Shown: positions 17,455 through 33,735, numbered from the stretch's first letter. The stretch: DNA of 40,000 nucleotides from Frateuria aurantia DSM 6220 (GCF_000242255.2 NC_017033.1:2079110-2119109); one strand, 5' to 3'. Notes: generated from the sequence alone by a model not told the origin. Numbers and translations are program-made.

Positions 17455-17473
17455 AGCCGTGCCGGCTTTTTTT
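17455..17473 (+). terminator. intrinsic terminator candidate
   Basis: AGCCG-TGC-CGGCT stem-loop followed by T7. A second hairpin, GATGCGG-CCTAT-CCGCATC, precedes it at 17416-17435. Confidence 0.45.
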
Positions 17474-17489
17474 GTGCCTGGAGAAAGTC

Positions 17490-18273: not shown

Positions 18274-18551
18274 CCACCTACCTTCAGCCGCCGGGCATGT
18301 TCTGCGATCGAGCCGGCGAGAAAAGGGCTGACGAAGAGGAGGCCATCGAAAGGCAAGTTGCCTCTGACCTCTCCGATCCAGACGTCGCCGAGGAATGGCT
18401 GATGAGTTCGATCGACCGCTTCGACGACACCAAGGCAGCCGCCCAGGCACTGGCCCGGGGCGACCTGCACTCGTTCCATAACATCTTCGCCCACTGGGTG
18501 CAGGCGCAGACCGAACTGCGCTTTGAGCAGAAGCTCCGCGGCTTCCACTGA
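18270..18551 (+). CDS. hypothetical phage protein
   Basis: 93-aa ORF with an ATGA overlap to the previous gene and acidic, protein-like composition. Confidence 0.45.
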   Translation: MTTYLQPPGMFCDRAGEKRADEEEAIERQVASDLSDPDVAEEWLMSSIDRFDDTKAAAQALARGDLHSFHNIFAHWVQAQTELRFEQKLRGFH

Positions 18552-18603
18552 TTCAAATCCCCTCCCTTTTGATTGTGCTGGCTCAGGCCGGCAGGAGATC
18601 CCC

Positions 18604-19425
18604 ATGTCTGAAATATCCGTGGCCAGAGCACAGAACCTGGCACAAATTGAGCGTGTAAATGCGCTACTTCCCACCTCGATCGGTGAGGCCATGCAACTCG
18701 CCGAGTTCATGGCTAAGTCGGATCTCCTGCCTCCGCACCTAAAAGGCCGACAGGGCGACTGCCTGCTGGTGGTAATGCAAGCTCAACGCTGGGGTATGGA
18801 CGCCTTATCAGTGGCCCAATGCACGTCAGTTGTTCATGGACGCCTCTGCTACGAGGGCAAGCTGGTTGCGGCAGCCCTGTACTCACAGAAAGCCATCGAT
18901 GGCCGCCTCCACTATGAAATCAGCGGCCATGGGCAGGACGCCTCCATCGTTGTAACTGGAACACCTCGTGGAACTGGTCAGACTCAATCAGTGTCAGGCT
19001 CCGTCCGCAAGTGGCGAACGATCACGATGAAGAAACAGGATGGCGCCCCTCCCAAGCGGGTCGACAATGCCTGGGACACAATCCCGGAAGACATGCTGGT
19101 CTACCGCGGAACGCGGCAATGGGCGCGACGCTATGCGCCTGAGGTGATGCTCGGGGTGCAGACGCCCGATGAAGTTGACGATACACCCATGCAGACCACT
19201 GTGATCCACAGCACGGCTGCATCCTCTCCTGCCATTGAACCGTTGATTCCTTATCCGGAAGAAGAGTTCAGCAAGAACTTCGACACCTGGCTCGGACGCA
19301 TCCAGTGCGGCCGGAACTCCGCCGAAGAGGTGATCGCCAAGCTGCAGACCAAATACACCCTGACGCCCGGTCAGCTGGGCGCCATCCGTGACCTCGAAAC
19401 CACCGAGGCGGAGGTAGTCGAATGA
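18604..19425 (+). CDS. recT: RecT-family single-strand annealing recombinase
   Basis: ATG 18604 has AGGAG upstream. 'AEFMAKSDLLPPHLKGRQGDCLLVVMQAQRWGMDALSVAQ' is the typical RecT core. It is followed by an exonuclease gene. Confidence 0.8.
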   Translation: MSEISVARAQNLAQIERVNALLPTSIGEAMQLAEFMAKSDLLPPHLKGRQGDCLLVVMQAQRWGMDALSVAQCTSVVHGRLCYEGKLVAAALYSQKAIDGRLHYEISGHGQDASIVVTGTPRGTGQTQSVSGSVRKWRTITMKKQDGAPPKRVDNAWDTIPEDMLVYRGTRQWARRYAPEVMLGVQTPDEVDDTPMQTTVIHSTAASSPAIEPLIPYPEEEFSKNFDTWLGRIQCGRNSAEEVIAKLQTKYTLTPGQLGAIRDLETTEAEVVE

Positions 19426-21173: not shown

Positions 21174-21175
21174 CC

Positions 21176-21403
21176 ATGGCAACCGACAACTCCCTTCCCA
21201 CCATCGACATGTTCCAGCCGCTCGACGGCTGGTTCGACTGGCGATCCGGCCGTATGCGAGTGCTTGTCCGAGAAGGCGAGCCACGCATGCGCTGCGGAAA
21301 GATGGCCTGCGGCCACGATTCACCATGGGCCCCTGAGTTTTCCAAACCGTGGGGCACCTTCCCGGATCTGCCCGAAACAGTGGCCGAGAAAATGGCCGCC
21401 TGA
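21176..21403 (+). CDS. hypothetical phage protein
   Basis: 75-aa ORF starting 2 nt after the previous stop. Confidence 0.4.
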   Translation: MATDNSLPTIDMFQPLDGWFDWRSGRMRVLVREGEPRMRCGKMACGHDSPWAPEFSKPWGTFPDLPETVAEKMAA

Positions 21404-21412
21404 GGACGAAGC

Positions 21413-21745
21413 ATGAAATCACTCGGAAATATCAGCCGTGGCGCAGAAGCCGCGGCAAAACAAATCAGCAAGAACGCCCTGGAGCATGGACGTGTCGCGA
21501 TCTTCATCGATGAGACAGGCGATGTTGCCTTCGTCCCGCATTACGATCGCCAATATGGCGCGGCGCTGGCGACTCTTTCCAAGCAGCTCGTCGGAATTTA
21601 TGAGGGCAACGCCTCAGGCACCGGTGTGTGCCACCCGACGCAGTCGGTCTATGCCATCTCCAAATCGGACCTTGAGCATTGGATGGGGTTTATCAGTATC
21701 CCGGCCGGTGTGTGCGCGATGACTGAACAGAGGGCTGCAGCATGA
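21413..21745 (+). CDS. hypothetical phage protein
   Basis: 110-aa ORF with GAGGA 5 nt upstream of the ATG. Confidence 0.5.
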   Translation: MKSLGNISRGAEAAAKQISKNALEHGRVAIFIDETGDVAFVPHYDRQYGAALATLSKQLVGIYEGNASGTGVCHPTQSVYAISKSDLEHWMGFISIPAGVCAMTEQRAAA

Positions 21746-21963
21746 GCGCTGCTGAAAATATTGATCCGGCCGAAGGCCACCTGTGGGGTTATGAGGACTG
21801 CGCCAGGTATATCGGCGTGGCCCGGTGGACCTTCGTCAACCGAATCAGCAAAGAGCCGGACTTCCCGCGCCCGGCCATCGAGCTGTCGAGAAAGATCCGG
21901 CGATGGCTCCCCGAAGACGTGAAGGACTGGGCCTATCGCTCCCGCCGCCGGAACCGGCGTTAA
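21742..21963 (+). CDS. excisionase / AlpA-type HTH DNA-binding protein
   Basis: 73 aa: 'YEDCARYIGVARWTFVNRISKEPDFPRPAIELSRKIRRWLPEDVKDW', an excisionase-type winged helix. It is convergent with int and abuts it. Confidence 0.6.
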   Translation: MSAAENIDPAEGHLWGYEDCARYIGVARWTFVNRISKEPDFPRPAIELSRKIRRWLPEDVKDWAYRSRRRNRR

Positions 21964-22931
21964 CCCAGCTTGGCCGCCATATCCGTGGCGGACTCCCGGT
22001 AATAGATCAACAGGCTTTTGATGTCCCTGTGACCGATGACCCGGGCGAGCTGCAGCACATCCAGCTTCTTGCTCAGGCGCCAAATGCCTTCCGCACGCGT
22101 GTCATGGAAGTGCAGATCCTCGACGGCCGCCCTATCCCGGTACTTTCGCCAAATTGCATCCCGCTGCGCATCATTCATGCCGAAGCATGGCTGATCGCCA
22201 TCCCTTGGTAACGCCTGCAGTATCTCGGCGGCAAACGTGGACAGAGGAACGTCCCGTTTGTCGCCGTTTTTCGTTATGGGGATATGCACATAACGCTTAT
22301 CGAGGTGAACGTGATTCCAGGTCAGCCCGACAATCTCGCCTGACCGCATCGCCGTCTCGATGGCAAACAGAAAACACAGGCCGACGCGGTTGGCCAAGCT
22401 TTCGGCTCGCAGCTCATAACCGACACCGAAGGCCTGGCGGACGCACTCAATCTCATCATCCGTAAGCCGGCGCTTGCGGCTCTCTGGTGACTTGGGAGCT
22501 GCAAATCCTTCGAACGGGTTATGGGTCATCCAGCCCCATTCCTCTCGGCACCGCCGAAACAGGCCCCGCAGCTCGTTCATCTCTCGCCGGACCGATGCCT
22601 CGGAGACCTCTTGCAGCCTGGCATCCCGGTAACGAATCAGGTGATCTTTGCTCACCTCGGGTATCCGCACCTCGGCAATGGGATCCAGCATCAGGCGCTT
22701 CACGCGAGCGATATCCCCCCGTGATTTGCCGGCATTCACATGCTCGTCGAGCAGGCGCTTGAGGGCATCTTCCACCAGCATCTTCTGCGCAGGTGCCTGC
22801 TTGCCCTCAGCCTCTTGGCGAAGGGACCAGCGCTGCGCTTCGGTCTTGGTGGAAAACGACTTGCTGACGCGCTGGCCATGAACCATGACCTGGGCTCGCC
22901 AGTTTGTGCCGCGCTTTGTGATGGATGCCAT
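21960..22931 (-). CDS. int: tyrosine site-specific integrase (prophage)
   Basis: 323 aa from ATG 22931 ('MASITKRGTNWRAQV'). The catalytic region has 'ETAMRSGEI', 'HDTRAEGIWRL' and 'GHRDIKSLLIYY'. Confidence 0.9.
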   Translation of the reverse strand: MASITKRGTNWRAQVMVHGQRVSKSFSTKTEAQRWSLRQEAEGKQAPAQKMLVEDALKRLLDEHVNAGKSRGDIARVKRLMLDPIAEVRIPEVSKDHLIRYRDARLQEVSEASVRREMNELRGLFRRCREEWGWMTHNPFEGFAAPKSPESRKRRLTDDEIECVRQAFGVGYELRAESLANRVGLCFLFAIETAMRSGEIVGLTWNHVHLDKRYVHIPITKNGDKRDVPLSTFAAEILQALPRDGDQPCFGMNDAQRDAIWRKYRDRAAVEDLHFHDTRAEGIWRLSKKLDVLQLARVIGHRDIKSLLIYYRESATDMAAKLG

Positions 22932-23017
22932 GTCGCCTCGCTGCTGGTGCAATCTCTGGTGCAAAAGTGGTGCACTAGGGTGCAACTTACGGCAATTTCT
23001 GGCAACTAAAACGAGAA

Positions 23018-23041
23018 AGGCCACCCCTTGCGGAGTGGCCT
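23018..23041. terminator. GC-rich hairpin flanked by A/T runs (candidate bidirectional terminator/insulator upstream of int)
   Basis: AGGCCAC-N10-GTGGCCT, flanked by AAAACGAG ... CTCGTCGTTTT. Confidence 0.4.
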
Positions 23042-23090: not shown

Positions 23091-23112
23091 TTGGTATTGG
23101 TGCCAAGAGGGG
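23091..23112 (+). repeat. degenerate copy of the tRNA-Leu 3' end (att core remnant)
   Basis: TTGGTAT-TGGTGCC-AAGAGGGG compares with TTGGTATGTGGTGCCCAAGAGGGG at 33643-33666. The two differ by two single-base gaps. Confidence 0.7.
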
Positions 23113-23360
23113 CATCGAAAACCGCATAGAAATGCGGACTATCAATGCCAAAAGAAAAATATGCCCCCCAAAAATGCCCCCAGACCGGCCGCGCTTGAAT
23201 GAGACAGCATGGGACAACCGGGCCATCTGGCGAGGATATCCACCCGTCGCCACTGTAGAAATTGACCCGATCTGATTGGTGCCCCTTTAGGGCACTCGAT
23301 CTGGTGCAGAATGTCGCAGGTTGAGGGGGGGGTAAAAGTGCGGAGGTTATTACTTTTTCG

Positions 23361-23462
23361 GTGTTCCAGGTGTTCCACCCCTCCTAAACCCGCATGGTTA
23401 AGCCATTTCTCAGGCAAAAAAATGGAACACCTCCAAAAACGGCAGGTGTTCCAGGTGTTCCA
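23361..23462. repeat. octamer iteron cluster (GTGTTCCA/TGGAACAC), 5 copies
   Basis: GTGTTCCA at 23361, 23370, 23446 and 23455 (two tandem pairs, 9-bp register), and inverted TGGAACAC at 23423. Confidence 0.8.
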
Positions 23463-23488
23463 CTTTTGTCGGCGAGGATCAGCGGCGA

Positions 23489-25285
23489 TCAGCCCTCTGC
23501 GGAGAAAACAGCCGCGCCCTCAAGGACATAGAACCGCCCCTTGCTCAGACCCCGCACACGCACGGATTGCGAGGCCTTGCCATCCTTGCCCGGCTGCAGC
23601 CATCCCGCGGCGATCAGCGTCTGTGCCGCCGCCTTCGGGTTGAAGCCCCGCACCAGCTCCTCGAAGGCCTCCGGCATGACCAGGTACTGCTCGCGCCGAT
23701 CCTCGGCGCCCGGCTCACCGACCTGCAACTTGCGACGAAAGCCGACACGATGTGCCACCGGCCGGCGCTCGTTATCGTGGTCCTCCGGTTCGAAGCGGCT
23801 ATCGCCATGCGCCTCGATGAAGGCCTTCACCTGAGACAGCAGCGCCGCCCGCTCGGCATCGGCAGGGCCGCCGCGGTCAGCCAGCCACTGGCGAAAACAG
23901 ATCCGGATTGCTTGCGCTGCCTCGCCCTCGGGCCAGCCGGTGATGCCGTAGGCCGTCGCCAGCTCGCCGGCGGCGCCGATCAGGGCAAAGCGCCGGGCCA
24001 CGCGCCGGACTTGCCCGCCGGCATCTTCGGGCACCAGGTCCGCCAGCATGTCGGTCATGCTCGCCTCAATGCGTCGACGCGATGCACGCTGGTCCGCCGT
24101 CAGCTGCTCGAGAAAGGACAGCAGCGGATGCCCGTAGTGTGTCGCCGCGGCCCGCTTCAACTGCTCGGCCACCGCGCTGGCGCTGCTGCCCACCGGCACC
24201 GACTCGAACATGCCATGCCCCATACCGGCATCCGCTGCCACGTCGATCACTCGCACCTCATGGCCAGCCCGACGCCGGCCGCCCGACTCCACCATCAGAT
24301 CGCCCATGCTGACCTCACCCGAGGACAGAAACGCCGTGCGCCATGTCGCCACCGGCCGGGCTCGGCCACTGCGATCTGATCGCCCTTTGCCCTGCCCGTT
24401 GGCCAGCATATAGGCGACCCTGCTGGCGTCCTTCGGCTCCAACTGGCCCAGCTCATCCAGCGGCAGCATCAGGTCGTTGTGCAGGGTCGCCACGCCCTCG
24501 AGCGCGTTGTCGGTCTGCCGCCATGTTCGCATGTAGGCCGGCGGACCATAGACGGACGATGCCACCAGCACGGCAGTCGTCTTGCCGGTGCTGCTCGAGC
24601 CCCGCAGATGCACGCCGCCACCGTCCATGCCGGCCAGATCCAGGCACGGTGCAGAGAAAGCCATGGAGACCGCCAACACCAGGCGGCTATGCCCGATGCA
24701 AACCTTGGCCACGCTATCGGTCCAGCCCTCGAGCGTGCCGCCGGTGGCGACTTGCGCCGCACCCGGTGCCGTGGTCTGGAAGATAACCGCCTCAGCTGCT
24801 GTCGGGCCAAAGGTGCGATCAGGCAGCGCAAACACCTCACCATGCCAGCCGGTGCGGCTCACGCTCCGCGCCTTCTGAGTGGGGTTGGCCTGGGCGATGT
24901 AGTCCATCAGCAGCTTGCGGGCGTGCTGGGAATTGGCGATCACCAGACCTTGCCCCAGCAGCTCTGCCCGCAGCTCCGCGCCATCGGTGGCCAGCATGGC
25001 GCAGGGCATCGCCCAGCGGTGCGCCTTGCCGTCCCGATCCGTGAAGGCCAGCAAGCGCCCCCATTCTCCGCCATCGGCATTGCGTGTCTCGGCCTCGACA
25101 TACAGAGGCGCGCAGATCCACGTCGCCGGCTTGTCGCTGTGCGGGTCGCTGAAATAGACCCCGTGGCGTCGGCCTTTGCCACGCTCGACCACTTCAAAGC
25201 CGGGCCCGGCCGGCGGTTCGGCATTGCTCACCACCAGGGCGAGCGGCGGCAGCGACTCGGCCGCTTCAATCGTGGAGCTGGACAT
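23489..25285 (-). CDS. DUF927-type helicase (SF3-like NTPase) of the integrative element
   Basis: 598 aa from ATG 25285. It has a Walker A motif, 'RGSSSTGKTT', and a DUF927-like N-region ('WICAPLYVEAETRNADGGEWGRLLAFTDRDGKAHRW'). It overlaps the end of the primase gene. Confidence 0.75.
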   Translation of the reverse strand: MSSSTIEAAESLPPLALVVSNAEPPAGPGFEVVERGKGRRHGVYFSDPHSDKPATWICAPLYVEAETRNADGGEWGRLLAFTDRDGKAHRWAMPCAMLATDGAELRAELLGQGLVIANSQHARKLLMDYIAQANPTQKARSVSRTGWHGEVFALPDRTFGPTAAEAVIFQTTAPGAAQVATGGTLEGWTDSVAKVCIGHSRLVLAVSMAFSAPCLDLAGMDGGGVHLRGSSSTGKTTAVLVASSVYGPPAYMRTWRQTDNALEGVATLHNDLMLPLDELGQLEPKDASRVAYMLANGQGKGRSDRSGRARPVATWRTAFLSSGEVSMGDLMVESGGRRRAGHEVRVIDVAADAGMGHGMFESVPVGSSASAVAEQLKRAAATHYGHPLLSFLEQLTADQRASRRRIEASMTDMLADLVPEDAGGQVRRVARRFALIGAAGELATAYGITGWPEGEAAQAIRICFRQWLADRGGPADAERAALLSQVKAFIEAHGDSRFEPEDHDNERRPVAHRVGFRRKLQVGEPGAEDRREQYLVMPEAFEELVRGFNPKAAAQTLIAAGWLQPGKDGKASQSVRVRGLSKGRFYVLEGAAVFSAEG

Positions 25286-26198
25286 GATTTTTGACCTCGA
25301 TAGATTCGGGCGTGCCGCCTTGCGCGGCCAGGGTGGTGGCGTAGTCGTTGAAGTCGCCGGGAATGGGTGGCACGGCCAGCGCCGCACCGATGGCACAGGC
25401 CGCTTGTGTCGCCGCCTGCACACCGGGATTGCTGCCATCCGGCTTGGCATCGTTGTCCGCGCAGATCGTGATTGGCAGATCCGGGTAGCGATCGCGCATC
25501 ACCAGCGCTACCGCCAGCAGGTTGCCGGCACTGAAAGCGACCGCCACCGCCTGGCCGGTGCTGGCGTGCAGACTCTTGGCCGTGGCCACGCCCTCAGCGA
25601 TCAACAGTCCGTCGCGGACCTTGCCCAGCAGGCAATAGGCGCCGCGGACCATGCCGCCGGGCAAAAACCGCTTGTCACCGTCGCCGCGGATACGCTGCAG
25701 GTTGACCAGGCGGCCCTCGGCATCGTGCATCGGCACCAGCAGCTTGCCGCCAGCTTCCCGCAGCCCGTCAGCCGTCACGCCTTTACGTTGCAGGTAGGGA
25801 TGCCGCGGACTGGCCGGGCTGGCGCGCTGCCACTCATCGAACGCACTGCCGGCGGCACGCCGCTGGCGGTGACGTTGCTCGGCATCGCGTGCGGCGCGGG
25901 CCTGCTCGATGGCGATACGCTGGCGCTCCAGCTCGTCGGCCGTCATGGTGCGGCCGGACTGGCCCAGCACCACAGTATGCTGCCCGCCTTTGCGCCAGCT
26001 CCCGAACACCGCGACAGGTCGCTCCGTATCAACATACACCACGGCCCAGCCATTGCGCTTGTCGCGCCGGTCGCCTTCATCGTGGAACCTGCACAGCACG
26101 CCATCCAGGCGCAGCCGGGTCGGATCGGTCGGCGTGATGCCGTGCTGGCGCATCGCGGCCACCAGGTCGGCCAAGAGATTGCCGGTGTAGCGGCTCAT
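25266..26198 (-). CDS. Toprim-domain DNA primase
   Basis: 310 aa from ATG 26198, with GGAGG upstream. The Toprim motifs are 'LLIAEGVATAKS' (Glu) and 'ITICADNDA' (DxD). Confidence 0.75.
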   Translation of the reverse strand: MSRYTGNLLADLVAAMRQHGITPTDPTRLRLDGVLCRFHDEGDRRDKRNGWAVVYVDTERPVAVFGSWRKGGQHTVVLGQSGRTMTADELERQRIAIEQARAARDAEQRHRQRRAAGSAFDEWQRASPASPRHPYLQRKGVTADGLREAGGKLLVPMHDAEGRLVNLQRIRGDGDKRFLPGGMVRGAYCLLGKVRDGLLIAEGVATAKSLHASTGQAVAVAFSAGNLLAVALVMRDRYPDLPITICADNDAKPDGSNPGVQAATQAACAIGAALAVPPIPGDFNDYATTLAAQGGTPESIEVKNHVQLHD

Positions 26199-26563
26199 GC
26201 CAACACCTCCCCAGCGATCACCCTGGCCATGTCGGCCACCGTGGATGGATTGAAATGGAACTCGCCCGGGTCGTCGTTGAGTTTGATCTGCTGCCAATCG
26301 CTCACGTCATGAGGCCAGCTGGTCAGCACCCGACTGGCCGAGCCCTGGGACCGATTCAAGGCGGCCATGCGCTCGGCCGCGGCGCGATCGGTGGCCCAGA
26401 CATTGCACAGATACAGGATCGACACGCCCGGCAGCGGCGACGGCAGGCCCGCCAATGATCGATGATCTGCCGCGCGCACCATGTCGGCATATTCCCGGGA
26501 CAGCCGGCCGACCTGCGATGTACGGATATCGCCCATGATCGAAACCACGAAGTAACGTTTCAT
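26195..26563 (-). CDS. hypothetical protein
   Basis: 122-aa ORF with ATGA overlaps to both neighbours. Confidence 0.5.
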   Translation of the reverse strand: MKRYFVVSIMGDIRTSQVGRLSREYADMVRAADHRSLAGLPSPLPGVSILYLCNVWATDRAAAERMAALNRSQGSASRVLTSWPHDVSDWQQIKLNDDPGEFHFNPSTVADMARVIAGEVLA

Positions 26564-26907
26564 CGCGGCACCTCCCCGCCGGCAGCTGCCGCCCGCAAGG
26601 CTTGGTTCTCTGCCATCAGCTGGCGAACGGTCGCCCGCAGCTCGGTGCGCTCGTCGTCGTAGTTGGCACCGGCTTCGACAAGCAGGCGCTGCATCTGCCC
26701 GTAGACAGTCCGCTGATCGGTCATGGTGGCCAGGGTCTGAAACTCGGCCCGAGCATCATCCGCAGTCAGGCTGGCACGCTTGGCCAGGATCGCAGACCGG
26801 AACGATGCTTCATCCAGCACGGTCCACAACTTCACGAACACGTCGCGCAGGCCGCGATAGGTCGGGGTGTTCAACGGGTCAAAGCCCGGCACGGTAACGG
26901 CGCTCAT
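26560..26907 (-). CDS. hypothetical protein (helical / coiled-coil C-terminus)
   Basis: 115-aa ORF, translationally coupled downstream. Confidence 0.5.
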   Translation of the reverse strand: MSAVTVPGFDPLNTPTYRGLRDVFVKLWTVLDEASFRSAILAKRASLTADDARAEFQTLATMTDQRTVYGQMQRLLVEAGANYDDERTELRATVRQLMAENQALRAAAAGGEVPR

Positions 26908-27086
26908 CGCAGCACCTCCACCGCCATAAAAGCGCAGGTGGACAGCACAACGCCGGCAACGAACGCAGCGAAGATATCCAGATCCGTGCTGCTGACATGC
27001 AGCCAGCCAGAAGGCCGGAAGGAAAAACGAGACGTGTGGGAGATGGTGCAGGTGCGTGCAGACGCACCCTGGGCATGATGTGCCAT
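26904..27086 (-). CDS. hypothetical small hydrophobic protein
   Basis: 60 aa from ATG 27086, with AAGGAA 8 nt upstream. The C-terminus is hydrophobic ('IFAAFVAGVVLSTCAFMAV'). The longer ORF-track version is rejected. Confidence 0.3.
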   Translation of the reverse strand: MAHHAQGASARTCTISHTSRFSFRPSGWLHVSSTDLDIFAAFVAGVVLSTCAFMAVEVLR

Positions 27087-27236
27087 GGTGGGGTTCCTTG
27101 AGAGATTGGAACCGCCGCGCACAGTCGCCAAACCATGGGCGGCGGGATGCAACGGGTTGGCGAACCGGTACTCAAGGAACCCGGCAGGCCCGTAGGCCTC
27201 CCATTGCACCCCGCCATAAGCTGGGCATGACGCAAC

Positions 27237-27265
27237 AAAAAAGCGCCGAGTTGGCGCGTTGCGCC
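27237..27265 (-). terminator. intrinsic terminator candidate (minus strand)
   Basis: The minus-strand RNA reads GGCGCAACGCGCCAACUCGGCGC followed by U6. Two alternative 5-bp GC hairpins are possible. Confidence 0.4.
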
Positions 27266-27441
27266 TCGAGTAAGTCGGGTCGCCAAACCCGGCCCCGGAT
27301 TGTGCCGGGACGTGCGAATGGTGCGCGCTGGCGCATGCGATGGTCAAGCGATTTTGCATGGCTGATTCCTGATTTCAGGCAAGCCGCCCCCGTCCGGCCC
27401 GGAAACTCCATGGCCGGTGGGCACGGTATGGGCTGGGGGAG

Positions 27442-28413
27442 TTACGCCGCTTCGGGCGTGCTGGATGCGATGCGCAGGGTGTAGATGGCCACGCGGGGAT
27501 GCTTGCGGCCCTGGTCGTCGGTCATGGCTTGGAGCCGTGTGTCGATCAGATGGCCGGCTTCGCGCAGCTCCTTGATCCGTGCGCCTGGCATCATGATGTT
27601 GAGGTGTCGGCGGGCGTACATGGTGCTGACTGGCCCGAATCGCAGCGCCTGCAACATCCGGTGGCGCTGGGCCGCCGTGCTGGTATCATCAATGCGCGAG
27701 ATTGATGCGATGGGGCTTGCCTTCGGGTGAGCCTTTTTCGTGTCCGGCGCCCGCTGGATCTCCGTCACCAGGCGCATGCCGCCTGTCTGGCCAGCCGTCC
27801 CCGGCAGTGCGCGATGACTGGCGGCCAGATCCATCAGCCGCTGCTTGCGGTCCTCGTAGGGGATGCCCTGCCCCAGCAGCATGATGTTGAGCCCTTCCAG
27901 CCTCCCGACCAGATCCAGCTCGGCCATCGTCATCTGGTCGCGGTCGCGCCCGGCAAACTTGCCCGTCACCACCCAATTGATCAGCTTTGCCTCATTCATG
28001 TAGTGATGGGGCTCCGTTTCCTTGCCCTGGGCAGCGCGTACCGTCTGCAGCATGGCCGCCTGGATCTTGTGGCTGCTGGCGGCGACATGGCGCTGCCGGC
28101 GCCAATCATCCGTGCGATGCGTCGATGCCTCGTAGGCGTTGATGACGCGCAGGTAGAAGGCAGGACTGACCCACGTCGCATAGGCGATGGCCAGCTGCTT
28201 GATGACATAGGTGCCGATGCGCTGCTTGGAGGCAATAGGCGTAATTCCGCCTTTTTCGATTTCAGCGACCAGATCCTGGGTCTGCTGATTCTCGAGCCAA
28301 TACTTGGGGCGGTGCCGCTGTTCGCCGCCGGCAGCTTGATGCAGATCGTTGAGGCAGTAACGGCCGGCCTTGTCCATCCGGATCGATGTGCTTGCGATCG
28401 ACAGGCCATCCAT
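27442..28413 (-). CDS. KilA-N domain DNA-binding protein with a C-terminal winged-helix-like region
   Basis: 'GRYCLNDLHQAAGGEQRHRPKYWLENQQTQDLV...IGTYVIKQLAIAYATWVSPAFYLRVI' is the KilA-N signature. Confidence 0.75.
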   Translation of the reverse strand: MDGLSIASTSIRMDKAGRYCLNDLHQAAGGEQRHRPKYWLENQQTQDLVAEIEKGGITPIASKQRIGTYVIKQLAIAYATWVSPAFYLRVINAYEASTHRTDDWRRQRHVAASSHKIQAAMLQTVRAAQGKETEPHHYMNEAKLINWVVTGKFAGRDRDQMTMAELDLVGRLEGLNIMLLGQGIPYEDRKQRLMDLAASHRALPGTAGQTGGMRLVTEIQRAPDTKKAHPKASPIASISRIDDTSTAAQRHRMLQALRFGPVSTMYARRHLNIMMPGARIKELREAGHLIDTRLQAMTDDQGRKHPRVAIYTLRIASSTPEAA

Positions 28414-28634
28414 CAGGCGGCCTCCCTCGAGGCGGCGATGCGCTGGGCGATCCAGGCCTGTACCTCAGCCTCAGACCAGGCCGTGCAGGCCGGACTCAGC
28501 TTGATGCTGGCGGGAAAGGTGCCGGCAGCCATGTGCCGGTAGATGGAGGCGCGCTTGAGGCCGGTGGTGCGCTCCACCTCGGCAATACGGATCAGGCGGG
28601 CGACAGGGGCTTGCTGCGATACCAGATGAGACAT
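28413..28634 (-). CDS. alpA: AlpA-family phage/island transcriptional regulator
   Basis: 73 aa: 'LIRIAEVERTTGLKRASIYRHMAAGTFPASIKLSPACTAWSEAEVQAWI', the canonical AlpA/MerR-like HTH. Confidence 0.85.
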   Translation of the reverse strand: MSHLVSQQAPVARLIRIAEVERTTGLKRASIYRHMAAGTFPASIKLSPACTAWSEAEVQAWIAQRIAASREAA

Positions 28635-28790
28635 GATGAGTTTTCCTTCACCGCCTGGGGCGACGGTGTTGGATGCTCATTCTGGTCATCGGCAGATCGA
28701 GAAAAATACCAATGCCTGCAGACTACACAGTCAGCAGGCAAACTGTGCTGCCTGCTCAGCAGACAACACACTTTCAAATAGCCAGTACAG

Positions 28791-29426
28791 TCACTGGCCA
28801 TCCCATTCCGCTACCCAGCGGGCCACGGTTCGAGGATCGGCTATCACCGGGTATTGCTTCACAACGTCTCTACAGAATGCGGCTGTTGAGCGATAACTCA
28901 CTGCGCCACCTCGCCACTCGGCCCACGCAGATCGCACCAAAGGCTTAACCTCGGCATGCGGGCTCGACTCATGCCTTGCCTTTGAACCACTTTTGGCAAC
29001 TGCAGTTCGGGATTGCTTAACGGCATGTACATCGCAGCGCTGGCTCAGTATGGCATCTGCATAAAACCTGGCCTCAATCACGTAATTCCATGCCTCTGTG
29101 GAGTTTCCGAAACGATCTGATCTCAATGCATAGATGCAGCGCATCAAGGAAATCACTCCGTAGTGAATAGGTCCTTCAGGCTGCTCACTCTCCGGCATTG
29201 CCAGAACTTTCTCATGGTATTTGTCCAGACCGGCAGCCGTGACCCCCTGACAACAGACATCAACCAATTTGCTCAGCAATTCACGCTGAAAACTTTCATC
29301 GTCATCATAAAAACCAAGATCAATCAATGACCCAGCAACAGATTCAATGATCTGGTACGCATGACCTGATGGCGTCATGTGCTTGCAAGGTTCAGTAGAA
29401 CAGCCGCTCATTTCTCGCGCACCCAC
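28791..29426 (-). CDS. hypothetical cargo protein
   Basis: 211-aa ORF of lower GC than its flanks. The start is uncertain (GTG 29426, ATG 29411 or ATG 29378). No family recognised. Confidence 0.5.
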   Translation of the reverse strand: MGAREMSGCSTEPCKHMTPSGHAYQIIESVAGSLIDLGFYDDDESFQRELLSKLVDVCCQGVTAAGLDKYHEKVLAMPESEQPEGPIHYGVISLMRCIYALRSDRFGNSTEAWNYVIEARFYADAILSQRCDVHAVKQSRTAVAKSGSKARHESSPHAEVKPLVRSAWAEWRGGAVSYRSTAAFCRDVVKQYPVIADPRTVARWVAEWDGQ

Positions 29427-29589
29427 TGCCGCGCCCTGAAAGGTGCCGCGCCAGCCTGGCAGGGTGTCCAGACGTTCGGGGATCAGCCTAGGCGCGGTGG
29501 CACTAGTCTAGCGCGTCGTGGGACGATATGGGACGGCATGGGACTGTATGCTAGGGTTGGCCATCCAACAGGCTGGTGTGCTGCCGAAA

Positions 29590-30243
29590 ATGACCATGAC
29601 CGATCACCTATCTAGGTTTTCTGTAACGCTCTCCGATGGCACGGATATGACACCACAGCTTCAGCGTTTTGCTGAAATCATAGGATTGGATCGTATCGCA
29701 CCTGAGCGTTACAGCCTGTTGCTACTGCTTGGCTTGTACGGGGCCAAAGAATCAGGAAAACAAAATCCATTTAAAATCATTCAAGAAATAAAGGCATTAG
29801 AAGACCCTCAAATAGCGAGCAATCTAAAACCTGCCACTCAGTTCAAGCACCCCCCACTCAAGGGGCTATGGCACAAGCACTATCTTCAAGACGGGATCGC
29901 ATCTATGGCGCTAAACCTTCGAAAAGGAATGGATAGATATAAGTTGCCATGGGTTGAGCAACGGATAGCCGAAGCCAAGGCTGCCAATGAAAAGCGCTTC
30001 TTTTCAATGGAGGACGCCGCACACATTGCGCGAGATGCAGTCTCAGATAATTGGAAGAGGCTCACTAGAGACTCTGTCCTTACTGGCGAATGGCTCATCT
30101 ATGCGAGATATCAGAATGCAAACTACTACCTGTGTCTAGGCAAGCATCAAAACGATGACGCGGAATTAAGAAGGCAAATCGATGCCATCTGCTTACATGA
30201 ATTTCCCTTCCTATCTCAAATATTAGATCAAACTGCCAATTGA
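29590..30243 (+). CDS. hypothetical cargo protein
   Basis: The ORF is open from 29518. The likely start is ATG 29590 ('MTMTDHLSRF'). It is AT-rich, and the C-terminus reads 'LTGEWLIYARYQNANYYLCLGKH'. No family recognised. Confidence 0.5.
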   Translation: MTMTDHLSRFSVTLSDGTDMTPQLQRFAEIIGLDRIAPERYSLLLLLGLYGAKESGKQNPFKIIQEIKALEDPQIASNLKPATQFKHPPLKGLWHKHYLQDGIASMALNLRKGMDRYKLPWVEQRIAEAKAANEKRFFSMEDAAHIARDAVSDNWKRLTRDSVLTGEWLIYARYQNANYYLCLGKHQNDDAELRRQIDAICLHEFPFLSQILDQTAN

Positions 30244-30434
30244 TCCAGACATAGCTTGTCAACAATACTACCAGCGGCCCCGTACAGGACAACGATGAAA
30301 GCTGCCATTGACCGTGCCGAGGCAGCGCGACGCTGAGGCCTGGCCACTGATAGACTGCCCATGACGTATGGGTATGTCCCTGCTCATGCGCCACGGCGGA
30401 TATGTCCGGGGTGATGACCGGAGCCAGCAACACG

Positions 30435-30466
30435 CCCCCGTAGGCCGGCCAGCCTCGGGGGTTTTT
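30435..30466 (+). terminator. intrinsic terminator candidate
   Basis: CCCCCG-N15-CGGGGG followed by TTTTT. Confidence 0.5.
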
Positions 30467-30744
30467 CGTTTACAAGCGCGGGAGTCTGCCCGCCGCCGAA
30501 CGCACCGGATGACGATGCGAATCGATAACCGATCCAATTACGGAATATCCCGTAGTTGGCCAGGTCACTGGCTCGTCGTGGAATCGATGCAGTGAGCTTG
30601 GCCCAGACCACTCATCTGAGCAAACAGCGCCGGTCAGCCACTGCCCGCAGAGTCATGTGCGCATCGATGCCTGGCAGTCGCTTGGGCAGCAGATCCGCGG
30701 GGCGTTTTGAGCCTGATCGGAAGGCGGGTTTTGGGGACTTGGCC

Positions 30745-31073
30745 GTGATATGTCACCCCGTAACGCGCGCGTGCGCGCGAGGGACGCCCCTGAAGCCAGT
30801 CACAGCAACGGTTTGCGGGCATTGTGACCTGCCGACATGGTGATGCCCCGGTAACGTCCAGAACGCGGCGCTCAGGCAGTTGCCAGAGTGGCGCCGGCGA
30901 TATGTCAGCCCACTACGCGTGCGTGCGCGGGGATGGCGCCCAGGCAGACCACCTCACCGGACAGCAGGCATTCCGAGCTGGGCCAGCAGGACCGATCAAG
31001 GCGAGGATCTGGGGTGGGTGATGGGGCTGAAACGGTGATATGTCACTCCAAAAAAACGCGTGCGCGCGAGGAC
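30745..31073 (+). repeat. three imperfect ~40-bp direct repeats (GTGATATGTCAC...ACGCGTGCGCGCGAGGAC)
   Basis: Copies at 30745-30786, 30897-30934 and 31035-31073, with starts spaced 152 and 138 bp apart. Related TATGTC boxes lie at 30373 and 30401. Confidence 0.75.
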
Positions 31074-31542
31074 GGGAAAATCGCCCTGTCTGGCGAGCTG
31101 TCTGCGCCGGCCAGCCAGCGATCGGGGCACACGCCGCCGGCAACAGCCTGGGCCCGAGCCCATCCGCAGATCCGCCCCCATCCATTCAGGCCCAGCCACC
31201 CCAGCACCACCAGGACGGCCGCGCTGCAGCTGGCCAGCAGCTCCGATCCACGCAGCACACCCGCCAAGCCTCTGTCGATCGATACGCCGGCACGCTCAAA
31301 TCGGCGGGTCCCTCCTTCAGCTGGTCGCACAGCATGGCGCACAGAACGCCCGCCACGCCCCGCGCGGCATCTGAGCCATGGCAGTGCATGCCTGTCGCTG
31401 CAGGACGGCCCACAGGCGCGGCCAGAGTGATCGACGGATCAGCGCCGCAGGCAGCGGGCCCAGCGATCGCCAGCACCAGCACATGCGGAGTTTCTGGACC
31501 ACTACGCACGCGCACGCGAGCCGGCTGCCCTGGGACCATTTC

Positions 31543-31685
31543 CGTGACGTCACGAAAAAGCCCCGCCTGCCGGTCACGCTCTGTCACGGGATCGTCACGG
31601 TCCCGGCTGCTGCCGGGCACCGCATGTCACGCCAATGTCACGGCCTGTCACGCTCCATCAGAGCCAATGCTCGCCGGCGGTCACA
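31543..31685 (+). repeat. phased GTCACG box array
   Basis: The palindrome CGTGACGTCACG lies at 31543-31554. GTCACG occurs at 31573, 31583 and 31594, and again at 31626, 31637 and 31647 (10-11 bp spacing). GTCACA is at 31680. The hairpin CCCGGC-TGCT-GCCGGG (31602-31617) sits between the two triplets. Confidence 0.8.
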
Positions 31686-31917
31686 AGCCATCCTGCTTGC
31701 ACGCCGACCTGTTCTGCCCAGGCTGGCCGCGACCTATCCGCCTCACGCACCGGCGCGCGACGCGCACCGCTTGAGATGTCCCGATCCGGCCAAGTGGTAT
31801 GGTCGCAAACCAGCGTCGCGGGAACCGGCCCAAACTGGCCGATCACAGGCAGCTGGCGCGATCCAGCACCAACATTCCGTGACCAACATCACAATAAAAG
31901 CCAATTTCAGCCCAAAG

Positions 31918-32029
31918 TGGAACACCTGGAACACCTTGGAACACGTCAGGTGTTCCAAAGTGTGACGCTCATAAATGGCTCAACGGTGCGACCTCCCAGC
32001 CACTGGAACACCTGGAACACCTGGAACAC
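31918..32029. repeat. octamer iteron cluster (TGGAACAC), 7 copies
   Basis: TGGAACAC at 31918, 31927, 31937, 32004, 32013 and 32022, and inverted GTGTTCCA at 31950. Confidence 0.8.
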
Positions 32030-32109
32030 CGCAAAAGTGATAAGGGTCAGGAAAATCTCTCCGAAACTGCCGGCGACGCGAGCACAGATGCAATACCACT
32101 TTTGCCGGA

Positions 32110-33348
32110 TCAGCCCGCCTTGCTCTTGAAGGCCACCACCGTGCCGCCAGCCTTGAGACTGTCCAGGTAATCCGCCCACGCCTGCATCATCTTCTGACGT
32201 TCGGGCAGGTACTGTGCCTGGCTGGTATAGGCATCGCGCACCTTGTTCGATTCGGCATGGGCCAGCTGGCGCTCGATGGCGTCGGCGTTCCAGCCCATCT
32301 CGTTGAGCCGGGTTGCCGCCATGGAGCGGAAGCCATGAGCCGTCATCGTGGCCTTGTCGTAGCCCAGGGCACGCAGGGCTGTGTTGACGGTGTTCTCGGA
32401 CATGGGCCGGCTGTCGGTCCGAAGGCCTGAAAACACATAGCGGGCATGGCCGGTCAACCCATGCAGATCCCGTAAGATGGCCAGCGCCTGCTCGGACAGT
32501 GGCACCAGGTGCGGCGCACCCATCTTCATCTTCTCGCCCGGGATGCGCCACATCGCGCCATCCAGATCCATCTCGGCCCACTCCGCTTTGCGCAACTCAC
32601 CAGGGCGAACGAACAGCAGGGCCGACAGCAGCAGCGCGCAGCGCACCGTGAAGGTGCCGGCAAACCCATCCATGGCACGCATCAGGCCACCGATCTGCAC
32701 CGGATCTGTGATGGCGGCATGGTGGCGATTGCGTGTGGTCTTCAGCGCGCCGCGCAGGCTGGCCATGGGATCGGCTTCGCACAGCCCCTCGATGATGGCG
32801 TAACGGAATACCTGCCCAGCCTTGATCTTGGATCGGCGTGCCGTCTCAAGCAGTCCCTTGTCTTCAGTCTCCCTCAGCGCCGCCAGCAGCTCCCGCGGGG
32901 TGATATCCGCAATGGGTCGCTGACCGATGGATGGGAACAGATATTCCTCGAGCAGCCATTGATTCTTGTTGGCGGTTACCTCGGCCACGTCCTGGCGGGC
33001 GAGCCACTGCCGGGCAACTTGCTCGAAGGTCACGGCACCGCCAGCCTCGGCGGTCGCCTCTTGCTTGGCCTCCTTGCGAGCCGCACCCGGATCAATGCCA
33101 TCCGCCAGCAGCCGGCGGGCATCCTCCCTGCGCTTGCGGGCATCCGCCAAACTGATCCCGGGATAGACGCCAAGTGCCAGCCGTTTCTCTTTGCCGCCAA
33201 ATCGATACTTCAGCCGCCAGTATCGGGAGCCATTGGGCATGACCTCGAGATACATGCCACCCCCATCGGGCAGCCGGTAGCTTTTGTCACGGGGAGCGGC
33301 CTTGCGGGCGGCAGTGTCGGTCAATGGCATTGGGGGCATCTCCGCCAC
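32110..33348 (-). CDS. int: P4-type tyrosine integrase (DUF4102 arm-binding N-domain plus catalytic domain)
   Basis: 'MPLTDTAARKAAPRDKSYRLPDGGGMYLEVMPNGSRYWRLKYRFGGKEKRLALGVYP' is the P4-integrase N-terminal signature. The catalytic region has 'HGFRSMAAT' and 'AYT'. The likely start is ATG 33330, and the gene is adjacent to the tRNA 3' end. Confidence 0.9.
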   Translation of the reverse strand: MAEMPPMPLTDTAARKAAPRDKSYRLPDGGGMYLEVMPNGSRYWRLKYRFGGKEKRLALGVYPGISLADARKRREDARRLLADGIDPGAARKEAKQEATAEAGGAVTFEQVARQWLARQDVAEVTANKNQWLLEEYLFPSIGQRPIADITPRELLAALRETEDKGLLETARRSKIKAGQVFRYAIIEGLCEADPMASLRGALKTTRNRHHAAITDPVQIGGLMRAMDGFAGTFTVRCALLLSALLFVRPGELRKAEWAEMDLDGAMWRIPGEKMKMGAPHLVPLSEQALAILRDLHGLTGHARYVFSGLRTDSRPMSENTVNTALRALGYDKATMTAHGFRSMAATRLNEMGWNADAIERQLAHAESNKVRDAYTSQAQYLPERQKMMQAWADYLDSLKAGGTVVAFKSKAG

Positions 33349-33633
33349 CAGCCTGGGGGCACAAGTCCTGCGGCTGGGGGCATAAAGCCCAGCTGGACCG
33401 CATCAAGACCCGACAGCCGCCAAGCCTTGGCAGGCCTGGGTTTGCGGGGCATCAGCGAACGTCGCTGGGGGCATCTCGGGATCGAGGTAGGGGGCATTGA
33501 GCCCTTGTGCCCCCAAATATGCCCCCACAAAGCCTGCGCTTCAATGGGATTGTATGGGACAACATGAGACGAGCAGGCAAGAAAAAACCCGCTAAGTAGC
33601 GGGTTTCAAAGGAAATTCAGGACTATATGGGAC
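33331..33633. promoter_or_regulatory. att arm with repeated motif arrays (GGGGGCAT-type x8, ATGGGAC-type x4)
   Basis: GGGGGCA(T/C) near 33332, 33355, 33376, 33444 (GCGGGGCAT), 33467 and 33490. The inverted form (A/G)TGCCCCC is at 33508 and 33520. ATGGGAT/ATGGGAC/ATGAGAC lie at 33544, 33554 and 33564, and ATGGGAC at 33627. Confidence 0.6.
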
Positions 33634-33650
33634 GTCCTGATATTGGTATG

Positions 33651-33735
33651 TGGTGCCCAAGAGGGGACTCGAACCCCTACGACTTGCGTCGCTACCACCT
33701 CAAGGTAGTGCGTCTACCAATTCCGCCACCTGGGC
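33651..33735 (-). tRNA. tRNA-Leu (anticodon GAG)
   Basis: 85 nt including an encoded CCA. The acceptor stem is GCCCAGG/CTTGGGC, the anticodon stem-loop is CTACC-TTGAGGT-GGTAG, the variable arm is long, and the T-arm is AGGGG-TTCGAGT-CCCCT. It lies downstream of secG, as does E. coli leuU. Confidence 0.9.

What the first reader, a model, noticed from the sequence alone, without database searches (positions are those of the whole stretch)
23361..32029. TGGAACAC octamer iterons in two clusters 8.5 kb apart: a P4-style bipartite ori/crr architecture
Twelve copies of one octamer occur in just two places. Five lie at 23361-23462, just beyond the 3' end of the helicase gene. Seven lie at 31918-32029, just beyond the 3' end of the integrase gene. 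Most are tandem with a 9-bp register, each cluster contains one inverted copy, and the two clusters have opposite overall orientation. Established knowledge: satellite phage P4 replication needs two distant cis sites, ori1 and crr, which both consist of octamer iterons bound by the primase-helicase alpha protein. This element encodes a split Toprim primase and DUF927 helicase, so the octamers are strong candidates for its origin and enhancer sites.
Basis: partly seen in the sequence, partly recalled or inferred. Interest (0 to 1): 0.68.

Follow-up and report, generated by a model that had tools for sequence, protein, structure and literature searches.

The report
Paired inverted replication-origin repeats in satellite
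A 10.6-kb P4-like integrated element of Frateuria aurantia carries two inverted copies of a replication-origin module made of TGGAACACC repeats, a paired layout that recurs in relatives with different repeats and resembles the ori/crr pair of phage P4.

Summary
TGGAACAC occurs 13 times in the window (about 1 expected). Twelve copies lie in two clusters, at 23361-23462 and 31918-32029. The real unit is the 9-mer TGGAACACC. The two clusters are inverted copies of one ~125-nt module: 2-3 direct repeats, one inverted repeat, a spacer, 2-3 direct repeats and an A-rich tail.

They sit in a ~10.6-kb element integrated at tRNA-Leu in Frateuria aurantia DSM 6220. The element has a P4-type integrase, AlpA, a P4 CI-type RNA, a Toprim primase 42% identical to the primase part of P4 alpha, and a DUF927 helicase. 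The helicase is not an alpha homologue; it matches SaPIbov1 Rep and SCCmec Cch in sequence and in predicted fold.

Cluster 1 has the position and grammar of a SaPI/PICI origin. Twelve relatives carry the same kind of module just 3' of the helicase, each with its own repeat. Ten elements, counting this one, have a second module, always inverted. Repeats are conserved between paired modules while spacers drift. Integrase arm repeats (TGGGGGCA) are a separate set.

Verdict: initiator-binding origin repeats in a P4-like bipartite layout. This is a new variant of a known kind. What the second module does is untested.

The parts
23347..23466 (-). Iteron module 1, the origin-type module directly 3' of the helicase gene. 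TGGAACACC copies lie at 23360-23368(-), 23369-23377(-), 23423-23431(+), 23445-23453(-) and 23454-23462(-). The A-rich tail is at 23347-23359. The spacer holds an A7 tract and the motif AAATGGCTTAACCATGCG.
   Evidence: The module is conserved in L005, which is 91% identical in DNA. Its interior is 62% A+T against a mean of 38% for the element.
31914..32043 (+). Iteron module 2, an inverted second copy of the module, 66-81 bp beyond the integrase stop codon. Copies lie at 31918(+), 31927(+), 31937(+), 31949-31957(-), 32004(+), 32013(+) and 32022(+). The tail CGCAAAAGTGATAA is at 32030-32043.
   Evidence: (I1, I3). There is no coding periodicity to its left and no promoter-like or terminator-like site.
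23489..25285 (-). DUF927 MCM-like initiator helicase (Rep), 598 aa, AFC86365.1. It is the proposed iteron-binding protein, acting through its C-terminal winged-helix region (about residues 495-598).
   Evidence: Pfam DUF927, E 2.5e-85. PDB sequence hits 5DGK and 8TCH. AF2 model pLDDT 88.5. Foldseek full-length matches to Cch (TM 0.68/0.78) and SaPIbov1 Rep. Start codon from homologues. The last 98 residues diverge faster than the core.
25266..26297 (-). Toprim primase, homologous to the primase part of P4 alpha.
   Evidence: Pfam Toprim_3. 42% identity over 169 aa to P4 alpha residues 132-296.
26195..26907 (-). Two small ORFs (122 and 115 aa) of unknown function, upstream of the primase in the same operon direction.
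   Evidence: GC3 of 0.77-0.78 supports coding. No family hits.
27135..27324 (-). P4-type immunity RNA locus: C4/CI antisense RNA (27135-27221), isrK (27237-27311) and the a1b1 target (27272-27324). It is overlapped by a probably spurious 151-aa ORF.
   Evidence: Rfam RF01695 84.7 bits and RF01394 50 bits, both at or above gathering score. RF03163 scores 42.5 bits, below its gathering score of 46.7.
27442..28413 (-). KilA-N plus HTH_39 DNA-binding protein (AFC86370.1). It is a candidate regulator but is not conserved in relatives.
   Evidence: No homologue in any related locus.
28413..28634 (-). AlpA/Vis-type excisionase-regulator.
   Evidence: Pfam Phage_AlpA, E 8e-18. 38% identity to P4 orf88.
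28791..31900 (.). Variable or cargo region. It holds a 211-aa ORF (28791-29426, -), the int-alpA RNA motif (29434-29498, -), a 241-aa ORF (29518-30243, +; low G+C), then about 1.6 kb without coding periodicity that contains an abiF RNA motif (31260-31309, +).
32110..33348 (-). P4-type tyrosine integrase with an arm-binding domain.
   Evidence: Pfam Arm-DNA-bind_3, Phage_int_M and Phage_integrase. 42% identity to P4 Int over the full length.
33331..33527 (.). Integrase arm-type repeats TGGGGGCA (6 copies) between the int start and attL. A further copy lies at 23175-23182 next to attR.
   Evidence: all 7 window copies lie at the two att arms. The same 8-mer is in P4's annotated attP arm repeats. 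The arm motif stays constant in relatives whose iterons differ.
33643..33735 (-). tRNA-Leu(gag) gene (33651-33735). Its 3' end forms the attL core (33643-33673).
23091..23119 (-). attR core, an imperfect copy of the tRNA-Leu 3' end (TTCGATGCCCCTCTTGGCACCAATACCAA). It is followed by a terminator hairpin at 23018-23041.
   Evidence: Local alignment score 40 against a shuffle maximum of 28. Terminator. Homology with L005 ends near 22995.

Best explanation
Both clusters are binding arrays for the element's own replication initiator, the DUF927 MCM-like helicase, read through its C-terminal winged-helix domain.

Each cluster is a complete SaPI/PICI-type origin module: two sets of 9-bp iterons, including one opposed iteron, flanking a relatively A+T-rich spacer, followed by an A-rich tail.

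Module 1 lies directly 3' of the helicase gene and about 240 bp from attR. It is the canonical origin. After excision, Rep hexamers would assemble and melt DNA there, and the P4-alpha-like Toprim primase would prime.

Module 2 is a second, inverted Rep-binding locus that works in cis with module 1. The most likely mechanism is Rep-Rep contacts that loop the DNA, as proposed for P4 ori1 and crr. The effect could be to stimulate initiation or to set copy number.

What is shown here: the anatomy, the homologies, the conservation of position, grammar and inverted pairing across relatives, and the selective conservation of iterons.

What is inferred: Rep binding, origin firing, looping, and the sign of module 2's effect.
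For: 1. The repeats are far from chance and form one duplicated module.

2. The helicase belongs to the initiator-helicase family whose origins lie directly 3' of rep and are read by a C-terminal winged-helix domain. Support: DUF927, PDB sequence hits 5DGK and 8TCH, and full-length fold matches to Cch and SaPIbov1 Rep. Literature: PMC7581432, PMC9371898, PMC6092414.

3. Twelve related loci have an iteron module within about 30-190 bp of the helicase stop codon, with the same grammar. The iterons differ: GGAACGy, CAGACACT, TGTCCCGCC, TGTCCCGAC, TGTCCCGG, TGTCCCCAC, GTCTCGGT, TGCCCCG.

4. Ten elements (window, L022, L002, L003, L008, L024, L025, L006, L007, L021) have a second module with the same iteron as the first, always inverted.

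5. Between paired modules the iteron columns are 74-100% identical. Other columns are only 35-59% identical in six elements. This points to selection on the iterons.

6. The last 98 helicase residues are 20-35% identical between iteron groups, where the core is 50-60%. They are 59-100% identical within a group.

7. Outside the low-G+C cargo, the modules are among the most A+T-rich 40-mers of the element.

8. P4 has the analogous layout: crr directly 3' of alpha and next to attP, ori with the same iteron grammar, and the element is otherwise P4-like.
Against: - There is no binding, replication or copy-number data for this element or any close relative.
- Co-variation of the helicase C-terminal region with iterons is confounded by phylogeny. 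It also has an exception: L021 shares TGTCCCCA with L006/L007 at only 30% C-terminal identity.
- AlpA is also present in most relatives and cannot be excluded as the binder by presence or absence alone.
- Some relatives (L010, L015, L023) show only one module. More distant ones (the L009-L014 group, L011, L020, vB_Pae_U10) show no clear module.
- The A+T enrichment is modest.
- The position of the second module varies widely, so a single shared role is not guaranteed.
Confidence: 0.72

Rival explanations
1. Module 2 is a negative copy-number and incompatibility locus rather than an enhancer. It would titrate Rep and pair ('handcuff') with the origin, like incA of plasmid P1 or incC of F, where a second iteron array lies on the other side of the rep gene.
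For: - In L024, L025, L006 and L007 the two modules flank the helicase gene itself, a P1/F-like layout.
- Both modules carry identical iterons.
- P1 and F biology is from established knowledge, not tested here.
Against: - The initiator is a hexameric helicase, not a RepA-type monomer/dimer initiator.
- The closest relative by gene content, P4, uses its second site positively; the P4 record calls crr a 'cis required region for replication'.
- Satellites replicate in bursts after induction, when tight copy control seems less needed.
Confidence: 0.2
2. Module 2 is a second independent origin. The element fires from two inverted origins, and no long-range cooperation is involved.
For: Module 2 has the complete grammar of module 1, with even more iterons (7 against 5), an A-rich tail and an A+T-rich flank. 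In L021 the two modules lie back to back like one enlarged palindromic origin.
Against: A redundant second origin would not be expected to stay inverted in 10 of 10 elements.
Confidence: 0.2
3. The repeats are operators for a transcription or excision regulator of the element (AlpA/Vis-type or the KilA-N-HTH protein) and control int and the replication operon rather than replication initiation.
For: AlpA is present in the window and many relatives. Both clusters lie at gene ends near the att/int region.
Against: - The KilA-N protein has no homologue in any relative that keeps the modules.
- The clusters lie 3' of convergent or terminal genes, not at promoters; no promoter-like site was found at module 2.
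- The grammar and the position 3' of rep match known origins.
Confidence: 0.06
4. The repeats are integrase arm-type sites, or excision-factor sites, of the att regions.
For: Cluster 1 lies about 240 bp from the attR core. In L010 the repeat 3' of the helicase equals the arm motif TGCCCCCA.
Against: - The arm repeats are a different motif, TGGGGGCA. All 7 window copies lie at the two att arms, and P4's annotated attP arm repeats contain the same 8-mer.
- The arm motif stays constant across elements whose iterons differ.
- Cluster 2 is 1.6 kb from attL.
Confidence: 0.02
5. The modules are packaging (pac/terS) recognition sites, or functionless remnants of an inverted duplication.
For: In L002, L003 and L008 the two modules flank a terS-like gene (phrog_57, E 8e-7 and 5e-6).
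Against: - The window element and most relatives have no terS-like gene, yet they keep the modules next to the helicase.
- Iterons are kept while spacers drift, which argues against a neutral remnant.
Confidence: 0.04

Closest known systems
Satellite phage P4 replicon: alpha protein with ori1 and crr
   Same: - Two separated clusters of one octamer iteron.
- One cluster lies directly 3' of the primase/helicase gene and next to attP, followed by int (P4: alpha, crr, attP, int).
- P4 ori has the same grammar: 3 direct, 1 inverted, about 44 nt, 2 direct.
- The element shares a P4-type Int with TGGGGGCA arm repeats, AlpA/Vis, a CI(C4)/isrK RNA, and a primase domain 42% identical to alpha residues 132-296.
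   Different: - The helicase and origin-binding part is not alpha-like. It is a separate DUF927 MCM-like protein.
- No sid, psu or delta homologues.
- Both clusters here are the same complete module in inverted orientation. P4 crr is two 120-bp direct repeats with a different internal pattern.
- The distal module lies 3' of int rather than between vis and sid.
- The host is a Rhodanobacteraceae bacterium, not an enterobacterium.
SaPI/PICI replicons (SaPIbov1 Rep-ori; EcCICFT073 pri-rep-ori) and SCCmec Cch
   Same: - The initiator is of the same family and fold (DUF927; 5DGK, 8TCH).
- There is a separate primase upstream.
- The origin lies immediately 3' of rep.
- Two iteron sets with opposed copies flank a more A+T-rich spacer.
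   Different: Described SaPI/PICI origins are single. Here, and in at least nine relatives, a second inverted module exists at a variable distance. The element's regulation and integration module is P4-type, not Stl/Rpr-type.
Iteron plasmids with a second iteron array (P1 incC/incA, F incB/incC)
   Same: Two arrays of the same iteron lie on either side of, or at a distance from, the initiator gene. In L024, L025, L006 and L007 they flank the helicase gene.
   Different: The initiator is a hexameric helicase, not a RepA/RepE winged-helix initiator. No DnaA-box-type features were identified. Handcuffing is untested. This comparison rests on established knowledge, not on a test made here.

Membership tests
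P4 ori1/crr bipartite replicon | Two separated cis sites built from the same short iteron | tested here: met
   Twelve TGGAACAC copies in two clusters 8.46 kb apart. P4 record: type I repeats in ori and crr.
P4 ori1/crr bipartite replicon | One site directly 3' of the primase-helicase gene and adjacent to attP/int | tested here: met
   Cluster 1 is 27 bp from the helicase stop codon and about 240 bp from the attR core. In P4, crr is 4291-4590, the 3' end of alpha is at 4636, and the attP core is 4078-4097.
P4 ori1/crr bipartite replicon | The initiator is a homologue of P4 alpha (fused primase, SF3 helicase and C-terminal origin-binding domain) | tested here: not met
   The helicase shows no significant BLASTP similarity to alpha. 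Only the separate Toprim protein matches alpha, at residues 132-296.
P4 ori1/crr bipartite replicon | Both sites are required in cis, and the initiator binds both | not testable with these tools
   Needs a mini-replicon assay and EMSA or footprinting.
P4-like satellite (gene content) | P4-type integrase, AlpA/Vis and CI-type immunity RNA | tested here: met
   Int 42% and AlpA 38% identical to the P4 proteins. RF01695 at 84.7 bits and RF01394 at 50 bits.
P4-like satellite (gene content) | Capsid-hijacking genes sid, delta and psu | tested here: not met
   tblastn of P4 Sid, Delta and Psu found no credible hit inside the element.
SaPI/PICI-type Rep-ori replicon | The initiator is a self-loading Rep helicase of the DUF927/SaPIbov1 Rep/Cch type with a C-terminal winged-helix region | tested here: met
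   Pfam DUF927. PDB hits 5DGK and 8TCH. AF2 model and Foldseek match over about 585 columns.
SaPI/PICI-type Rep-ori replicon | The origin lies immediately 3' of rep | tested here: met
   Module 1 at 23347-23466, helicase stop codon at 23489. The same position holds in 12 relatives.
SaPI/PICI-type Rep-ori replicon | Two sets of iterons, with opposed copies, flank an A+T-rich region | tested here: met
   The grammar is 2 direct, 1 inverted, a 45-nt spacer, then 2-3 direct. The spacer or flank is 62% A+T against a mean of 38%. The A+T enrichment is modest.
SaPI/PICI-type Rep-ori replicon | Rep binds the iterons, and rep-ori drives autonomous replication | not testable with these tools
   Experimental. 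Only indirect support is available, from the fast-diverging helicase C-terminal region.
Iteron-plasmid control locus (P1 incA / F incC) | RepA/RepE-type initiator, with a second iteron array acting by titration or handcuffing | tested here: not met
   The initiator is an MCM-like helicase, and no Rep_3-type protein was found among the element's ORFs. Handcuffing itself cannot be tested here.

The most novel reading that the evidence does not exclude
Paired, always-inverted origin modules may be a general design of a large, undescribed clade of small integrative replicons that combine P4-type and PICI-type parts. These use a DUF927 Rep, occur in Xanthomonadales and relatives, and insert at tRNA or tmRNA genes.

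In this reading the two modules load two Rep hexamers of opposite polarity at a distance. The DNA between them can be attP-int, a terS-like gene, or the helicase gene itself, with iterons embedded in coding sequence. That segment would be an exchangeable or preferentially replicated cassette. This would be a long-range double-origin mechanism distinct from both the single SaPI origin and P4 ori/crr.
Probability: 0.15. Interest if true: 0.75.

Novelty: new variant of a known kind. Interest (0 to 1): 0.52.

Why it matters
Iterons 3' of a Rep helicase are the known origin type of SaPIs and PICIs. A two-site ori/crr replicon is known only from P4, whose alpha helicase is unrelated to the one here.

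This element joins the two. It has a P4-type integration, immunity and primase backbone, a SaPIbov1-type initiator helicase, and a duplicated, inverted origin module.

The pairing recurs in relatives with different iterons. This suggests that long-range pairing of initiator-binding arrays arose, or persisted, independently of the helicase family. It also offers a natural series of distances and contexts (0 bp to more than 10 kb) for testing how self-loading helicases use a second cis site.

In practice it gives a defined candidate origin and specificity code (helicase C-terminal region against 9-mer) for an uncharacterised group of satellites or islands in Xanthomonadales.

Tried and rejected
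- **Integrase arm sites.** Rejected. The arm repeats are TGGGGGCA at both att arms, as in P4, and they stay constant in relatives whose iterons differ.
- **KilA-N/HTH protein as binder.** Rejected. It has no homologue in any relative that keeps the modules.
- **terS/pac sites.** A terS-like gene sits between the modules only in L002, L003 and L008, and the window has no homologue.
- **Transposon-like terminal inverted repeats.** No transposase is present, and int lies outside the long arc. The boundaries are tRNA-derived att repeats.
- **P4 alpha homology of the helicase.** None found.
- **intB (21960-23024) as this element's integrase.** Considered first and rejected. Homology with L005 ends at the terminator after attR, and L005 continues into host genes.
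- **Coding potential and defence annotation of 28.8-31.9 kb.** Nothing in Pfam or PADLOC, and one PHROG of unknown function.
- **Promoter and terminator scans at the modules.** Uninformative.
- **Rfam hit rnk_pseudo over cluster 1.** Below threshold (28.7 bits against 55) and ignored.
- **Pseudomonas 'phage' vB_Pae_U10 (34% helicase identity).** No clear module.
- **The paralogous helicase locus of the same genome (P0002).** Could not be fetched.
- **Literature searches.** No description found of paired origins in DUF927 elements.

Full report
**Observation**

TGGAACAC occurs 13 times in the 40-kb window, against 1.09 expected. Five copies lie at 23361-23462 in orientation - - + - -. Seven lie at 31918-32029 in orientation + + + - + + +. 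One isolated copy lies at 18957.

The repeating unit is really the 9-mer TGGAACACC. It matches 12 times (0.29 expected), and 11 of the 12 clustered copies carry it. One-mismatch variants do not cluster anywhere else.

Aligning cluster 1 (reverse strand) with cluster 2 shows they are two copies of one ~125-nt module. The module begins AAAG, then has two or three tandem iterons, one inverted iterons, a spacer with the shared motif AAATGGCTyAAC..TGCG, and two or three tandem iterons. It ends with an A-rich tail, CGmAAAAGTrATAA (inverted repeats I1 and I3).

**Context**

The window comes from Frateuria aurantia DSM 6220. The helicase is AFC86365.1 and the KilA-N protein is AFC86370.1.

The clusters lie in a ~10.6-kb element integrated at tRNA-Leu(gag), which is at 33651-33735.
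- The attL core at 33643-33673 is repeated imperfectly at 23091-23119 (score 40, shuffle maximum 28).
- A terminator follows attR.
- A 91%-identical copy in a metagenome bin (L005) loses homology just after that terminator and runs into host genes.
- The integrase at 21960-23024, with the neighbouring RecT and YqaJ genes, therefore belongs to a separate island.

Read along the minus strand, the gene order is as follows:
- tRNA-Leu and attL;
- TGGGGGCA arm repeats;
- a P4-type integrase;
- module 2;
- about 1.6 kb without coding periodicity, holding an abiF RNA motif;
- two low-G+C ORFs and an int-alpA RNA motif;
- AlpA;
- a KilA-N/HTH_39 protein;
- a C4 (P4 CI-type) RNA with isrK and the a1b1 target;
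- two small ORFs;
- a Toprim primase;
- the DUF927 helicase;
- module 1;
- an arm repeat, then attR.

Comparison with P4:
- Int is 42% identical.
- AlpA is 38% identical to orf88.
- The primase is 42% identical to alpha residues 132-296.
- There is no sid, delta or psu.
- The helicase shows no similarity to alpha.

**What the helicase is**

It hits SCCmec Cch (5DGK) and a SaPI protein (8TCH) by sequence.

An AlphaFold2 model has mean pLDDT 88.5 and pTM 0.82. It matches Cch over about 585 columns (TM 0.68/0.78), and it matches 8TCH, described as the SaPIbov1 replication initiator with helicase activity.

The literature says the following about this protein class:
- The origin lies directly downstream of rep and consists of iterons recognised by the C-terminal winged-helix domain.
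- At least two iterons lie on each side of an A+T-rich region and point in opposite directions (PMC7581432, PMC9371898).
- Gram-negative PICIs have the same origin organisation, and a pri-rep-ori fragment of EcCICFT073 replicates autonomously (PMC6092414).

Module 1 fits this description in both position and grammar.

**Comparative test**

Relatives were collected from genomes, metagenomes and viral contigs.

Twelve loci have a module within about 30-190 bp of the helicase stop codon, with the same grammar and often the same kind of A-rich tail (CGGAAAAtACAAGG). The iterons differ:

| Locus | Iteron |
|---|---|
| L005 (91% identical DNA) | TGGAACACC |
| L022, Dyella humicola | GGAACGy |
| L023 | CAGACACT |
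| L002, L004, L008 | TGTCCCGCC |
| L003 | TGTCCCGAC |
| L024, Dyella monticola | TGTCCCGG |
| L006, L007, L021 | TGTCCCCAC |
| L025, Lysobacter | GTCTCGGT |
| L015 | TGCCCCG |

Ten elements, counting the window, have a second module with the same iteron as the first. It is inverted in every case, but its position varies:
- after int (window);
- 10.2 kb away (L022);
- 0.6-1 kb downstream, beyond a terS-like gene (L002, L003, L008);
- at the 5' end of the helicase gene, or within its coding sequence (L024, L025, L006, L007);
- back to back with the first module (L021).

Between paired modules the iteron columns are 74-100% identical. The other columns are only 35-59% identical in six elements. 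These pairs are therefore old duplicates with selection, or concerted evolution, acting on the iterons.

The last 98 helicase residues diverge much faster than the core. Between iteron groups they are 20-35% identical, against 50-60% for the core. Within a group they are 59-100% identical. L021 is an exception.

The integrase arm motif TGGGGG[CT]A stays the same across elements whose iterons differ, and P4's annotated attP arm repeats contain the same 8-mer. This removes the arm-site rival.

The KilA-N protein is absent from all relatives.

**Comparison with P4**

In the P4 record, crr ('cis required region for replication') lies directly 3' of alpha and is followed by attP and int. Module 1 occupies the same position here.

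P4 ori reads three direct type I repeats, one inverted, about 44 nt of A+T-rich DNA, then two direct. This is the same grammar as the modules here.

It fails on the defining protein, because the helicase is not an alpha homologue.

In the excised circle the two modules are 8.46 kb apart one way. The other way they are about 1.9 kb apart, across attP and int (coordinates).

**Mechanism**

Most likely, Rep hexamers bind both modules through their C-terminal winged-helix domains. Module 1 would be the origin where DNA is melted and the alpha-like primase primes. Module 2 would be a paired cis site acting through Rep-Rep contacts.

The data cannot decide between three roles for module 2:
- stimulating initiation, like P4 crr;
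- restraining copy number by handcuffing, like P1 incA;
- firing as a second origin.

The invariably inverted orientation argues for a geometric constraint rather than simple redundancy. All binding and functional steps are inferred.

**Novelty**

No description of paired origin modules in DUF927-type elements was found.

The finding is a new variant of known kinds: a SaPI/PICI-type origin in a P4-type bipartite layout, on a P4-like backbone with a swapped helicase.

It is of moderate interest. Its main value is a testable model and a natural series of module spacings for studying self-loading helicases.

Noticed in passing
window 27135-27324 (- strand): Strong Rfam hit to C4 antisense RNA (the P4 CI-type immunity RNA, 84.7 bits), plus isrK at its gathering score and a below-threshold c4-a1b1 target hit. 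The 151-aa ORF at 26904-27359 that overlaps them is probably not a gene.
   Followed up: partly
window 30250-31900: About 1.6 kb of high-G+C DNA with no codon-position G+C periodicity in any long ORF. It holds an abiF RNA motif hit at 31260-31309 (42.8 bits, gathering score 37) and a 37-nt direct repeat at 30723-30759 and 31013-31049.
   Followed up: partly
window 29434-29498 (- strand): An int-alpA RNA motif hit (41.9 bits, gathering score 35.8) lies between two low-G+C ORFs of unknown function (28791-29426 and 29518-30243). No defence-system or Pfam match was found for either ORF.
   Followed up: partly
window about 17270-23024: A second island starts right after attR and its terminator. It has another tyrosine integrase (21960-23024, -), a RecT-like gene (18523-19425) and a YqaJ-like 583-aa protein (19422-21173). 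The region upstream of its integrase is in fact the arm region of the first element (23165-23218, 80% identical to 33510-33563). A low-G+C stretch lies at 13000-16000. Its boundaries were not determined.
   Followed up: partly
window 18957-18965: One isolated perfect TGGAACACC lies inside the RecT-like gene of the neighbouring island. For the 9-mer, 0.29 copies are expected in the whole window. This is probably chance.
   Followed up: no
L013 (metagenome contig Ga0210044_10000350), 216-17287: Integrase, AlpA, primase and the repeats all recur at a period of 9157 bp. This is a tandem pair of the same small element, or a concatemer, inside a 69-kb contig.
   Followed up: no
L024 10114-10203; L025 10239-10265; L006 9930-10001; L007 3250-3311: In these relatives the second, inverted iteron module lies at the 5' end of the helicase gene. 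In L024 and L025 it falls inside the called coding sequence, in the poorly conserved N-terminal region.
   Followed up: partly
L002 3941-4513; L003 11935-12570; L008 between 9768 and 10175: In L002 and L003 a ~200-aa HTH protein with weak similarity to small terminase subunits (phrog_57) sits exactly between the two inverted iteron modules. L008 has the same kind of gap, but its ORF was not examined.
   Followed up: partly
L010 5751-5866: The repeat array 3' of this helicase is TGCCCCCA. This is the same 8-mer as the P4-type integrase arm repeat, so origin iterons and attR arm sites cannot be told apart here.
   Followed up: no
protein P0002 (Frateuria aurantia DSM 6220; locus not retrievable): The same genome encodes a second DUF927 helicase. 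It is 80% identical, and its last ~70 residues are almost identical to the window's. Two co-resident elements may therefore share iteron specificity.
   Followed up: partly
L003, L006, L023, L024, L025: Related elements sit next to different RNA genes: tRNA-Leu(caa), tRNA-Thr, tRNA-Leu(taa), tRNA-Leu(gag) and tmRNA. Several are only about 5-8 kb long, with little more than an integrase, sometimes AlpA, a primase and the helicase. They are minimal integrative replicons.
   Followed up: partly
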